Part shown: in pieces, positions 51,101-54,100 of the stretch
Numbering within the stretch: the first letter of the stretch is position 1
Layout of the letters: each line of letters starts with the position of its first letter
Assembly (NCBI RefSeq): GCF_029227855.1
Contig: NZ_CP074356.1
Direction: 5' to 3' (one strand)
Length of the DNA: 64,000 nucleotides
Source: Escherichia coli
Lineage (GTDB): Bacteria > Pseudomonadota > Gammaproteobacteria > Enterobacterales > Enterobacteriaceae
Program-made: the position numbers

Positions 51101-54100
51101 TTTTAAGCTATGAATCAGCGCCATTTATCACAGAATAGACTTTTACTCTGAATAAATGGGAGGGTGACTTGCCTCAATATAATCCAGACTATAACATGCC
51201 TTATAGTCTTCGGAACATCATCGCGCGCTGGCGATGATTAATAGCTAATTGAGTAAGGCCAGGATGTCAAACACGCCAATCGAGCTTAAAGGCAGTAGCT
51301 TCACTTTATCTGTGGTTCATCTGCATGAGGCAGAACCTAAGGTTATCCATCAGGCGCTGGAAGACAAAATCGCTCAGGCCCCCGCATTTTTAAAACATGC
51401 CCCCGTTGTACTCAACGTCAGTGCACTGGAAGACCCGGTAAACTGGTCAGCGATGCATAAGGCGGTTTCGGCAACCGGTTTGCGGGTTATTGGCGTAAGT
51501 GGCTGCAAAGATGCGCAACTTAAAGCCGAAATTGAAAAAATGGGGCTGCCTATCCTGACGGAAGGAAAGGAAAAAGCGCCGCGTCCAGCTCCCGCACCGC
51601 AGGCTCCAGCGCAAAATACAACGCCGGTCACAAAAACGCGTTTAATAGATACCCCGGTGCGTTCCGGTCAGCGTATTTATGCTCCACAATGTGATCTGAT
51701 TGTTACAAGCCACGTTAGCGCTGGGGCCGAATTGATTGCCGATGGTAACATTCATGTCTATGGCATGATGCGCGGTCGTGCGCTGGCAGGGGCAAGTGGT
51801 GACCGGGAAACGCAAATATTTTGCACGAACCTGATGGCGGAATTGGTGTCCATCGCAGGTGAATACTGGCTGAGTGATCAAATCCCAGCAGAATTTTATG
51901 GCAAAGCGGCGCGACTGCAGTTAGTCGAAAACGCTTTGACCGTTCAACCGTTAAATTGATCCCTTTTTAACAAGGAATTTCTATGGCACGCATTATTGTT
52001 GTTACTTCGGGCAAAGGGGGTGTTGGTAAGACAACCTCCAGCGCGGCCATCGCCACTGGTTTGGCCCAGAAGGGAAAGAAAACTGTCGTGATAGATTTTG
52101 ATATCGGCCTGCGTAATCTCGACCTGATTATGGGTTGCGAACGCCGGGTCGTTTACGATTTCGTCAACGTCATTCAGGGCGATGCAACGCTAAATCAGGC
52201 GTTAATTAAAGATAAGCGTACTGAAAATCTCTATATTCTTCCGGCATCGCAAACTCGCGATAAAGATGCCCTCACCCGTGAAGGGGTCGCCAAAGTTCTT
52301 GATGATCTGAAAGCGATGGACTTTGAATTTATTGTTTGCGACTCCCCGGCAGGGATTGAGACCGGTGCGCTAATGGCACTCTATTTTGCAGACGAAGCCA
52401 TTATTACCACCAACCCGGAAGTCTCCTCAGTACGCGACTCTGACCGTATTTTAGGCATTCTGGCGTCGAAATCACGCCGCGCAGAAAATGGCGAAGAGCC
52501 TATTAAAGAGCACCTGCTGTTAACGCGCTATAACCCAGGCCGCGTAAGCAGAGGTGACATGCTGAGCATGGAAGATGTGCTGGAGATCCTGCGCATCAAA
52601 CTCGTCGGCGTGATCCCAGAGGATCAATCAGTATTGCGCGCCTCTAACCAGGGTGAACCGGTCATTCTCGACATTAACGCCGATGCGGGTAAAGCCTACG
52701 CAGATACCGTAGAACGTCTGTTGGGAGAAGAACGTCCTTTCCGCTTCATTGAAGAAGAGAAGAAAGGCTTCCTCAAACGCTTGTTCGGAGGATAAGTTAT
52801 GGCATTACTCGATTTCTTTCTCTCGCGGAAGAAAAACACGGCCAACATTGCAAAAGAACGGCTGCAGATTATTGTTGCTGAACGCCGTCGCAGCGATGCA
52901 GAACCGCATTATCTGCCGCAGTTGCGTAAAGATATTCTTGAGGTCATTTGTAAATACGTACAAATTGATCCTGAGATGGTAACCGTACAGCTTGAGCAAA
53001 AAGATGGCGATATTTCTATTCTTGAGCTGAACGTGACCTTGCCGGAAGCAGAAGAGCTGAAATAGGCCCGCTGTAAAAGCGCATTTCTCTTCAAGGCAGA
53101 GTCATCTCTGCCTTGCGTTTTTCATCCCCCTCATCCACGTTTGATAAGAGCGGCGAGTATTCTTGCTGATGCTACTCATTGCTTCCCCCCTTTACACCTT
53201 AATGCCGTTCCCCCCACACAGATCAAATTGTTTATACCTGGCTGAGTAAATAACCTTATTGTTAGTATAGGTATACTGGGTGATGATAACCCCGCAATTT
53301 CATTATTCATTGTTCTCCCATAGGATGAGGTTTCCCGCCGTAACTGGCGGGCTTTTTTTGCCGCAGAATTTTTCCTTTTAACACCCTGTAAACGAAAACT
53401 GCGCCGAAGCGCAGTTTAATCGTTGATGGTCAGAACGACCAGTTCGCACCAGCCACCGCGTTCCACGGGGATTCCACACCGGCACCATGGCTATACCCCA
53501 CCCCGAGATGCCCGCTTAACGAACTGCTGAATGAGGCTTTAATACCTGCCTGATATATTCCACGTCTGCCCGACAAATCATTGACAAAATTACCGTCATT
53601 ATTCACTTTCACCCGGTTATCATCGACAAATTCTTTGCGCACAGCCGCCTTCAGCCACGGCTCAACTTCCATGCCGTTCCCCAGACGCATGTTGTAACTC
53701 AGCGTTGCGCCCAGTTCACGATATATACTGCGGGTATCGACTGATTTCGATTCCATACCATTGGATAAATGATATTCGGGGTTATCAGCGGTGAACCCCG
53801 TTAACGATGCATACGGCGTCAGGTTCCAGTTACCATCGGTAAATCGCATCCCGGTTTCAATGTGACCGCCCAGCCCGTTGCTGCGATAACTGCCGTTGGC
53901 GGCTCCACCGCTGCTCATTTTACCGGCTACGTTACTTTCAAAGCGGTTCAGCTTCACGATACCGTCCAGATAGAAACCACTTTCATGTTCCCAACTGGCA
54001 TAGCCGCCCAGAGAATAACTGCCCACACTGCCATGACCTCCGCGATCAAAACCGATATGTGAATGGGAATAACCCATAAAAGCGCCCAGCGTGGCAATTC

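What the first reader, a model, noticed from the sequence alone, without database searches (positions are those of the whole stretch)
53066..53429. Orphan terminator and possible small transcript between minE and the autotransporter
A strong rho-independent terminator on the + strand (53334-53359) lies about 270 bp past the minE stop, with no annotated + strand gene in between. Either minCDE has a long 3' UTR, or a small RNA or small protein (for example a 26-codon ORF near 53170-53250, MLLIASPLYTLMPFPPHRSNCLYLAE) is encoded here.
Basis: seen in the sequence. Interest (0 to 1): 0.3.

Follow-up and report, generated by a model that had tools for sequence, protein, structure and literature searches.

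The report
Uncharacterised small RNA downstream of minE
The "orphan" terminator is real and most likely ends a short, highly conserved, Hfq-bound regulatory RNA specific to E. coli and E. albertii, which interaction screens flagged but nobody has named or tested; the proposed small protein is not conserved.

Summary
The terminator at 53334-53359 is real: a 6-7 bp GC stem followed by U7. That site is the mapped 3' end of the min transcript in K-12, so a simple long 3' UTR is not the main story.

The 66-78 nt ending at the second terminator (53282/53294-53359) are far more conserved than the rest of the spacer. They are >=99% identical in 4113 of 5315 E. coli genomes, against 371 for the adjacent 101 nt. 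A 57-nt stretch is identical in E. albertii, where the rest of the spacer is diverged or unalignable.

Published RIL-seq features list an RNA "minE.ycgI.IGR" with a U-tract of 7. In stationary phase it had 137 Hfq chimeras and 5 partners, and was always second in the chimera. Its sRNA score was 0.28, above the authors' 0.1 cut-off. It was never blotted or named, and it is absent from Rfam and from the K-12 annotation.

My best reading is an uncharacterised Hfq-binding base-pairing sRNA. Its origin is unresolved. It may have a weak promoter of its own, or it may come from read-through of the minE terminator, which Rho normally stops in a C-rich tract just upstream.

The parts
53063..53065 (+). 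minE stop codon (TAG)
53092..53122 (+). T1, the true minCDE intrinsic terminator: 10-bp stem 53092-53115, then CG and U5 at 53118-22
   Evidence: Found by the scan; dG -16.5 kcal/mol. The K-12 Term-seq 3' end at 1224225/1224224 corresponds to window 53119/53120 (PMC7815308 supplementary file 1). An equivalent but different terminator is present in E. albertii.
53161..53235 (+). C-rich, G-poor tract that resembles a Rho-loading (rut) site; variable in sequence, with indels in the C runs
   Evidence: C/G is 4.2-4.4, against a 99th percentile of 2.83 for 60-nt windows of this 64-kb window. E. albertii has an unalignable but equally C-rich tract (C/G 3-4) in the equivalent position, its C-rich windows ending about 70 nt upstream of the core. 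A Rho termination region was mapped at K-12 1224064(-), about window 53273, just downstream.
53169..53249 (+).
   Evidence: Present only in the window strain and broken by indels in 8 other strains or species.
53243..53265 (+). Conserved upstream block TGAGTAAATAACCTTATTGTTAG; either a promoter or regulator site, or the 5' arm of a precursor hairpin
   Evidence: Nearly invariant in E. coli. The first 17 nt differ at 1 position in E. albertii; the last 6 are diverged there. AACCUUAU can pair with AUGAGGUU at 53324-31 in the fold of 53243-53359 (z = -2.5).
53259..53287 (+). Weak candidate sigma-70 promoter TTGTTA-N17-GATGAT (8 of 12 matches). ATGATA at 53283-88 is invariant in all 11 sequences. 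The alternative -10, TATACT at 53272-77, is not conserved.
   Evidence: Read from the alignment. It falls below the scan threshold, so this is inference only.
53294..53359 (+). Conserved small-RNA core of 66 nt. The 5' end is not mapped and could be as early as about 53283 or further upstream.
   Evidence: 57 nt (53294-53350) are 100% identical in E. albertii, while the alignable part of the spacer and autotransporter end is 78% identical overall. 53282-53359 is >=99% identical in 4113 of 5315 E. coli genomes. RIL-seq 'minE.ycgI.IGR' has a U-tract of 7.
53298..53321 (+). Putative single-stranded seed UUUCAUUAUUCAUUGUUCUCCCAU, which includes an anti-Shine-Dalgarno-like CUCCC followed by CAU
   Evidence: Unpaired, or in the loop of a weak hairpin, in folds of the short RNA. 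53294-53315 is invariant. Variants occur only at 53316 (strain C21) and 53319 (ST131 lineage).
53334..53359 (+).
53176..53310 (-). Opposite-strand ORF MNNEIAG... of 44 aa here, with GGGAG 5 nt upstream of the ATG. Its ribosome-binding site and first codons are the exact complement of the seed. Probably not a gene.
   Evidence: 36 aa in most E. coli and 39 aa in E. albertii, but frameshifted to 15 aa in the ST131 lineage. K-12 against E. albertii gives 6 synonymous and 18 nonsynonymous codon changes. PGAP annotates it in none of the records inspected.
53396..53417 (-). T3, a hairpin immediately after the autotransporter stop (53430): AAACUGCGC-UUCG-GCGCAGUUU, with a poor U tail
   Evidence: Sequence; dG -13.2 kcal/mol. 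The tail fails the scan's T criterion in E. coli and passes in E. albertii.

Best explanation
The spacer between minE and the autotransporter encodes an uncharacterised Hfq-associated base-pairing small RNA. It is about 66-78 nt long, with its 3' end at the U7 terminator 53334-59 and a conserved body from about 53283/53294. Its layout is that of a classical enterobacterial sRNA: a largely unstructured, invariant, U/C-rich seed (53298-53321), a short U-rich stretch, then a GC hairpin with seven U's that serves as the Hfq-binding module.

Shown: the terminator; the conservation pattern; the absence of any curated annotation; and, in K-12 literature data, Hfq chimeras from this spacer in which the RNA is always the second (sRNA-type) partner, about 11 times more numerous in stationary phase.

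Inferred: that it acts by pairing with ribosome-binding regions of mRNAs. Its targets are unknown.

Its origin is unresolved. One possibility (about 50%) is a weak promoter of its own just upstream, with candidate TTGTTA-17-GATGAT and a start near 53294. The other (about 35%) is processing of transcripts that read through the minE terminator T1. In growing cells such transcripts are normally stopped by Rho, which would load on the C-rich tract 53161-53235 and terminate near 53273. Under that model the small RNA accumulates only when Rho termination is relaxed.
For: 1. Selective conservation. The core 53282-53359 is >=99% identical in 4113 of 5315 E. coli genomes and below 95% in only 5. The neighbouring 53140-53240 is >=99% identical in 371 and 80-90% in 4574.

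2. In E. albertii, 57 nt (53294-53350) are identical while the alignable part of the spacer and autotransporter end is 78% identical overall, and the first part of the spacer, which carries a different minE terminator, does not align.

3. The same layout of T1, C-rich tract, core with T2, and T3 is found in K-12 and E. albertii.

4. RIL-seq-derived table, PMC8175672 Table S1. 'minE.ycgI.IGR' is named in the transcript order of the minE strand. In stationary phase it had 137 chimeric fragments, 5 unique interactions, an SIC score of 0.8 (meaning 100% second in chimera), a U-tract length of 7, and an sRNA score of 0.276. That score falls between the known sRNAs RybB (0.29) and Spot 42 (0.23), and the authors' candidate cut-off is 0.1. 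In exponential phase it had 12 chimeras. In K-12 only T2 has 7 U's; T1 has 5. This places the signal at T2.

5. Seven or more terminal U's is the published hallmark of Hfq-binding sRNA terminators (PMC5558911 abstract).

6. minE transcripts end mainly at T1 (Term-seq), so the RNA ending at T2 is a distinct species.

7. A Rho termination region at K-12 1224064(-) has read counts upstream/downstream of 230/18 untreated and 293/571 with bicyclomycin, Rho score 24.9, p = 3.6e-67.
Against: - No curated Term-seq 3' end at T2 (K-12 1223978-85) in LB at OD 0.4, LB at OD 2.0 or M63. Abundance is therefore low in those conditions.
- No consensus sigma-70 promoter upstream in the window, K-12 or E. albertii. 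The candidate hexamers score 8 of 12, and the -35 varies.
- No 5' end data could be obtained.
- No northern blot exists. The authors of the RIL-seq prediction did not test this candidate.
- The RIL-seq table gives no coordinates. Placement at T2 rests only on the U-tract length.
- There are no compensatory changes in the terminator stem. The variants seen weaken it: G to A in the A26 and ATCC 25922 type, and a 5-bp stem in E. albertii.
- The predicted fold of the short RNA is no more stable than shuffled sequence (z = -0.6 to -1.5). This is normal for sRNAs but adds no support.
- The partners are unknown, and no significant local target was found.
Confidence: 0.68

Rival explanations
1. T2 is only a back-up terminator. 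Together with Rho it protects the convergent autotransporter gene from min read-through. The Hfq chimeras would then come from an inert 3' fragment that binds Hfq simply because it ends in a hairpin plus U7.
For: - T1 has an imperfect U tract.
- Rho-dependent termination is mapped in the spacer.
- No promoter was found.
- There is no Term-seq peak at T2.
- Convergent gene pairs often carry several terminators (general knowledge).
Against: A terminator needs only its stem and U tract. Here the 40 nt upstream of the hairpin are invariant in the 10 E. coli strains aligned and identical in E. albertii, while the real terminator T1 was replaced by a different sequence in E. albertii. Five distinct partners with 100% second-in-chimera behaviour is what regulators show, not debris.
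Confidence: 0.2
2. The conserved block serves the opposite strand. It would be the 5' leader, Shine-Dalgarno sequence (GGGAG) and start of a 36-44 aa protein (MNNEIAGLSSP...), possibly with the plus-strand RNA acting as its antisense regulator in a type I toxin-antitoxin-like layout.
For: - The ORF has a well-spaced GGGAG and stays open in K-12, O157, EPEC, A26, BEC1, the window strain and E. albertii.
- 8 of 14 variable sites among the E. coli alleles fall at third codon positions.
- UTI89's original annotation places a 'conserved hypothetical' gene, C1358, in this spacer.
Against: - The ORF is frameshifted to 15 aa in the ST131 lineage.
- K-12 against E. albertii gives 6 synonymous and 18 nonsynonymous codon differences, close to neutral. 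The C-terminus and length differ: 36, 39 and 44 aa.
- Only the first 7 codons are truly conserved.
- No promoter was found on that strand.
- PGAP calls it in none of the records inspected.
- The peptide is not membrane-toxin-like.
- The RIL-seq name order puts the Hfq-bound RNA on the minE strand.
Confidence: 0.08
3. The reader's plus-strand small protein (26 codons, 53169-53249), or the 32-codon ORF that overlaps the core (ATG 53283, to 53381), is the product.
For: Both ORFs exist in the window. The ORF at 53283 is also open in E. albertii and several E. coli strains.
Against: - The 26-codon ORF is absent from every other strain examined.
- Neither ORF has a usable Shine-Dalgarno sequence.
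- The ORF at 53283 is frameshifted in ST131 and absent in K-12 and A26.
- It also runs through the terminator hairpin.
Confidence: 0.02

Closest known systems
Classical intergenic Hfq-dependent sRNAs of E. coli (for example RybB, Spot 42, MicA)
   Same: Size of about 70-80 nt; an unstructured conserved seed near the 5' end; a U-rich stretch followed by a GC hairpin with >=7 U; a second-in-chimera signature in RIL-seq, with a prediction score between those of RybB and Spot 42.
   Different: No recognisable promoter, no mapped 5' end, no validated target, and low abundance in standard conditions. Its taxonomic range is much narrower: E. coli and E. albertii only among the 80 Enterobacteriaceae loci examined. 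It is not in Rfam or the K-12 annotation.
sRNAs between dual terminators of rRNA operons (rrA, rrB, rrF; PMC8144298)
   Same: A short RNA lies between two tandem intrinsic terminators. [quoted passage not shown]
   Different: Here the two terminators are about 240 nt apart and separated by a C-rich tract where Rho terminates. Read-through origin is not shown, and there is no sequence similarity.
3'-UTR-derived sRNAs (CpxQ, SdhX, AllZ, FadZ and others)
   Same: Located downstream of an mRNA on the same strand and sharing a terminator-based Hfq module. Several were found through the same RIL-seq prediction table, and AllZ is now annotated as b4831.
   Different: Those sRNAs use the mRNA's own terminator. 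Here the mRNA has a separate terminator upstream, so the RNA is not simply the 3' end of minCDE.
rseX (Rfam RF01401)
   Same: Best Rfam alignment over 53265-53358, with a similar overall layout.
   Different: Score of 20.9 bits against a gathering threshold of 50, with E = 8. This is a chance-level match, so the RNA is not a member.

Membership tests
Hfq-binding base-pairing sRNA | Rho-independent terminator with a 3' run of seven or more U's | tested here: met
   GC stem at 53334-51 followed by U7 at 53353-59. Some E. coli strains and E. albertii have U8. The criterion comes from PMC5558911.
Hfq-binding base-pairing sRNA | Physical association with Hfq in vivo | tested here: inconclusive
   From the literature only. 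RIL-seq 'minE.ycgI.IGR' had 137 chimeras in stationary phase and 12 in exponential phase, with a U-tract of 7. No read coordinates were available, and there is no hfq-mutant blot.
Hfq-binding base-pairing sRNA | Discrete small transcript with defined 5' and 3' ends | not testable with these tools
   No Term-seq 3' end at T2 in three conditions. No northern blot has been reported.
Hfq-binding base-pairing sRNA | Conserved single-stranded seed | tested here: met
   53294-53315 is invariant in 10 E. coli strains and E. albertii. The region is unpaired or only weakly paired in folds.
Hfq-binding base-pairing sRNA | Seed-dependent regulation of target mRNAs | not testable with these tools
   The five RIL-seq partners are in a supplement that is not held. 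The local complementarity search did no better than shuffled controls.
3'-UTR-derived or read-through sRNA | Co-transcription with the upstream mRNA | tested here: inconclusive
   T1 stops most min transcripts. However, the Rho termination region at about 53273 shows that plus-strand transcription extends beyond T1 (read-through of T1 inferred), and bicyclomycin raises downstream reads from 18 to 571. There is no direct link to the T2-ended RNA.
Any Rfam family | Score at or above the gathering threshold | tested here: not met
   No hit in the spacer at gathering thresholds. The best sub-threshold hits have E >= 0.6.
Small protein gene (either strand) | Reading frame conserved, with an excess of synonymous change | tested here: not met
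   The plus-strand 26-codon ORF is unique to this strain. The minus-strand ORF is frameshifted in ST131 and shows 6 synonymous against 18 nonsynonymous codon changes relative to E. albertii.

The most novel reading that the evidence does not exclude
A Rho-gated, dual-terminator sRNA. Under this reading the conserved RNA has no promoter of its own. It is made only when polymerases that leak through the minCDE terminator also escape Rho at the C-rich tract, for example in stationary phase, under stress or with bicyclomycin. That would tie the output of an Hfq-dependent regulator to both transcription of the cell-division operon and cellular Rho activity. Its seed is also the exact antisense of a ribosome-binding site and start codon on the opposite strand.
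Probability: 0.15. Interest if true: 0.6.

Novelty: new member of a known kind. Interest (0 to 1): 0.38.

Why it matters
E. coli K-12 is the best-annotated bacterium, yet a 66-78 nt element next to the min operon carries no annotation. It is more conserved than its surroundings and is present in about 98% of complete E. coli genomes. It appears only as one untested row in a supplementary table. If validated, it adds a young, Escherichia-specific member to the Hfq regulon. Depending on how it is made, it may also offer a clean case of an sRNA whose synthesis is controlled by Rho-dependent termination downstream of a leaky intrinsic terminator.

Tried and rejected
1. Rfam. Nothing in the spacer at gathering thresholds. 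Sub-threshold hits (rseX, rsmX, OmrA-B and others) have E values of 0.6-9.5 and are chance matches.

2. Homologues beyond Escherichia. blastn-short and nhmmer against minE-anchored loci from 80 Enterobacteriaceae species found the core only in E. albertii. E. fergusonii and the E. coli type genome were not among those returned, so the range is a lower bound.

3. Mobile-element origin. There are no phage matches, and the 13 'plasmid' matches are non-mobilizable; several are chromosome-sized records (4.8-4.9 Mb), and I take the smaller ones to be chromosomal fragments too. There are no paralogues; the median is 1 place per genome.

4. Covariation. Variation is too low, and the only stem variants are disruptive. 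I therefore built no covariance model.

5. Local target prediction against the translation-initiation regions in the window. The best duplex energies were no better than for shuffled sRNA (-27.2 against a shuffle mean of -26.1). Gene coordinates before position 50000 were also unreliable, because the window is not collinear with the reference strain there. The contiguous-pairing scan gave 9-11 nt matches, for example to the minE Shine-Dalgarno GGAGGAUAA and to the ycgH start. Matches of 12-14 nt occur by chance elsewhere in the window.

6. TSS and 3'-end literature. The Thomason 2015 paper and Melamed 2020 are not held. The Dar & Sorek 2018 and Melamed 2016 supplements are not held. The Hfq-CLASH supplements contain only an OmrB-minE coding-sequence hybrid. 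I queried the supplements of a Salmonella iRIL-seq paper by mistake, with no result.

7. Full-text searches for the spacer name, for ycgI and for the core sequence found no paper that describes this RNA.

8. Other promoter types (sigma-S, sigma-E, sigma-28) were compared by eye only. None matched convincingly in both E. coli and E. albertii.
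Full report
**What is there**

The window is E. coli. The spacer is 100% identical to strain JNEC-KY178. minE ends at 53065, and a 1122-aa YpjA/EhaD-like autotransporter converges on it, with its stop at 53430 on the minus strand. In K-12 only the last 344 bp of that gene survive, as the pseudogene ycgI.

The 364-nt spacer holds three hairpins, not one:
- **T1**, 53092-53115 on the plus strand: a 10-bp stem, dG -16.5 kcal/mol, followed by CG and U5.
- **T2**, 53334-53351 on the plus strand: CCCGCC/GGCGGG, dG -11.8 kcal/mol, followed by C and U7.
- **T3**, 53417-53396 on the minus strand: the hairpin directly after the autotransporter stop, dG -13.2 kcal/mol, with a poor U tail.

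**The min operon ends at T1**

Term-seq in K-12 (Adams et al. 2021, PMC7815308, supplementary file 1) lists a strong 3' end at 1224225/1224224 on the minus strand. The printed sequence shows it inside the U tract after the CAAGGCAGAG...CUCUGCCUUG hairpin. This maps to window 53119/53120.

No curated 3' end is listed at the K-12 equivalent of T2 (1223978-1223985) in LB at OD 0.4, LB at OD 2.0 or M63. A long minCDE 3' UTR that ends at T2 is therefore not the main transcript.

**Conservation singles out the sequence ending at T2**

In alignments of ten E. coli strains, 53140-53240 is riddled with substitutions and indels. From 53282 to 53359 there are only four variable positions.

Across all complete E. 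coli genomes:

| Segment | Genomes with a match | >=99% identical | 95-99% | 80-90% |
|---|---|---|---|---|
| 78-nt core, 53282-53359 | 5315 of 5426 | 4113 | 1198 | 2 |
| Adjacent 101 nt, 53140-53240 | 5320 of 5426 | 371 | 324 | 4574 |

I also examined minE-anchored loci from 80 Enterobacteriaceae species. The core is found only in E. albertii. There, 57 nt (window 53294-53350) are identical, while the alignable part of the spacer and autotransporter end is 78% identical overall. The first part of the spacer, including a different minE terminator, is unalignable.

Three other Escherichia loci (L011, L013, L015, from lineages outside E. coli and E. albertii), which lack the autotransporter, also lack the core. 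So does strain FEX669, which has a deletion running from T1 to ymgI. The element therefore travels with the 3' end of the autotransporter locus.

It is not on phages. The "plasmid" hits are non-mobilizable; several are chromosome-sized records, and I take the smaller ones to be chromosomal fragments too. There are no paralogues.

**Published experimental evidence**

Bar et al. 2021 (PMC8175672) computed features for every RNA in the Hfq RIL-seq data of Melamed et al. 2016. Their Table S1 has a row "minE.ycgI.IGR".

|---|---|---|---|---|---|
| Exponential | 12 | 1 | 0 | 7 | 0.028 |
| Stationary | 137 | 5 | 0.8 | 7 | 0.276 |

By the authors' formula (SIC = S minus 1/k, where k is the number of interactions), an SIC of 0.8 with five interactions means the RNA was the second partner in every chimera. 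That is the sRNA signature. The stationary-phase score sits between RybB (0.292) and Spot 42 (0.228), and the authors treat anything above 0.1 as a candidate.

The name order follows transcript direction, as it does for fliC.fliA.IGR and ybiJ.ybiC.IGR, so the RNA is on the minE strand. In the K-12 spacer only T2 has seven U's; T1 has five. This places the fragments within about 50 nt of T2.

The candidate was not among the eleven tested by northern blot. It is mentioned in no main text I could search. It has no Rfam family and no feature in K-12 RefSeq, although AllZ from the same paper is annotated as b4831.

**Most likely mechanism**

The conserved RNA has the anatomy of an Hfq-dependent base-pairing sRNA:
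- an invariant U/C-rich stretch, 53298-53321 (UUUCAUUAUUCAUUGUUCUCCCAU), predicted to be unpaired or in the loop of a weak hairpin;
- a short U-rich stretch (GGUUU) just before the terminator;
- a GC hairpin ending in seven or more U's, the published hallmark of Hfq-binding sRNA terminators (PMC5558911).

The CUCCC...CAU motif could occlude Shine-Dalgarno and start-codon regions. That step is inference, and the targets are unknown.

**How the RNA is made is unresolved**

*Independent promoter.* No consensus sigma-70 promoter precedes the core in E. coli, K-12 or E. albertii. The hexamer ATGATA at 53283-88 is invariant in all eleven sequences. A weak TTGTTA-N17-GATGAT arrangement would start transcription near G53294, exactly where the block shared by E. 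coli and E. albertii begins. The 60 nt upstream of the core align between the two species without indels and include a conserved block, TGAGTAAATAACCTTAT. Both points fit a promoter or regulator site.

*Read-through of T1.* Adams et al. mapped a Rho termination region at K-12 1224064 on the minus strand, about window 53273. [quoted passage not shown] The Rho score was 24.9 and p = 3.6e-67.

Just upstream, 53161-53235 is strongly C-rich and G-poor. Its C/G ratio is 4.2-4.4, above the 99th percentile (2.83) for this window. E. albertii has an unalignable but equally C-rich tract in the equivalent position, its C-rich windows ending about 70 nt upstream of the core. Polymerases that leak through T1 are therefore apparently stopped by Rho just before the core in growing cells. 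When Rho is inhibited, many RNA ends appear downstream.

This fits one of two pictures. The sRNA may be produced from read-through transcripts when Rho termination is relaxed, as with the sRNAs between the dual terminators of rrn operons (PMC8144298). Alternatively, Rho may insulate an independent sRNA gene from min transcription. I put these at roughly 35% and 50%, with the remainder unknown.

**ORFs**

The minus-strand ORF MNNEIAG... (53310 to 53176) has a well-placed GGGAG. It is open in most E. coli (36 aa), in this strain (44 aa) and in E. albertii (39 aa). However, it is frameshifted to 15 aa in the ST131 lineage. Only its first seven codons, which are the complement of the seed, are truly conserved. 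K-12 against E. albertii gives 6 synonymous and 18 nonsynonymous codon differences. I regard it as a by-product of the conserved RNA but cannot exclude it (about 8%).

**Limits**

- Abundance in standard conditions is evidently low.
- Variation is too small for covariation tests.
- The local target search found nothing above chance.
- The species survey was capped at 80 loci.

**Verdict**

The small-RNA reading is supported, the small-protein reading is rejected, and the long-UTR reading needs correcting because T1 exists.

This is a new, uncurated member of a well-known class, already hinted at in one supplementary table. Interest is moderate. It would rise if the Rho-gated read-through origin proves true.

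Noticed in passing
window 54390-54475 (both strands): About 20 of the 26 'terminator-like' hits in the scan are artefacts of the Asn-Pro (NPNPNP...) repeat linker in the autotransporter coding sequence (GGGTTC/GGATTT repeats). They are not terminators.
   Followed up: partly
L009 (EPEC E2348/69, NC_011601) 1330963-1330975, minus strand; equivalent to about 280 nt beyond T2, antisense to the autotransporter 3' end (about window 53640): EPEC RIL-seq (PMC8550237) reports 22 chimeras (p = 5e-39) between ArcZ and an RNA called 'minE.ymgJ.IGR'. It maps antisense to the ycgI-type autotransporter remnant, well past T2 and T3. Some minE-strand transcription therefore extends beyond T2 or starts downstream of it, and it pairs with ArcZ.
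   Followed up: partly
window 53102-53179 (- strand): A second minus-strand ORF of 25 aa (MSSISKNTRRSYQTWMRGMKNARQR) is preceded by a G-rich, Shine-Dalgarno-like run and ends inside T1. It is retained in seven of the eight E. coli strains checked (BEC1 carries a divergent 29-aa variant) but is absent in E. albertii.
   Followed up: partly
L097 (E. coli CE0032f) 1847-3300; equivalent to window ~53327: An IS4 element is inserted inside the conserved core in this bovine strain, 46 nt into the 78-nt query. This is a natural knock-out of the candidate RNA.
   Followed up: no
L008 (E. coli O150:H6 FEX669) 1555-1650: A deletion variant. Sequence directly after T1 joins to the ymgI-ymgG-ymgD side, removing the candidate RNA, the autotransporter and ymgJ. 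About 2% of complete E. coli genomes lack the core.
   Followed up: partly
window 41509-41632 (-) and 46640-46718 (-): These are the only Rfam-threshold RNAs in the window. STnc490 lies next to an IS200 transposase gene near fadR, by the JNEC-KY178 annotation, which is not exactly collinear with the window before position 50000. C0299 lies in the hlyE-umuD spacer.
   Followed up: no
window 53430-56798 (-): The autotransporter is intact here (1122 aa by RefSeq, annotated YpjA/EhaD-like). It is reduced to a 344-bp 3' remnant (ycgI) in K-12, ST131, EPEC and others, and to a larger truncated remnant in O157. The neighbouring ycgH autotransporter (58150-60813) carries an internal stop in the closest reference strain.
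   Followed up: partly
window 1-50000: The window is identical to strain JNEC-KY178 around the finding but is not collinear with it over the first 50 kb: position-by-position comparison gave 10139 mismatches, implying indels. Gene coordinates transferred from that strain are unreliable before position 50000.
   Followed up: no
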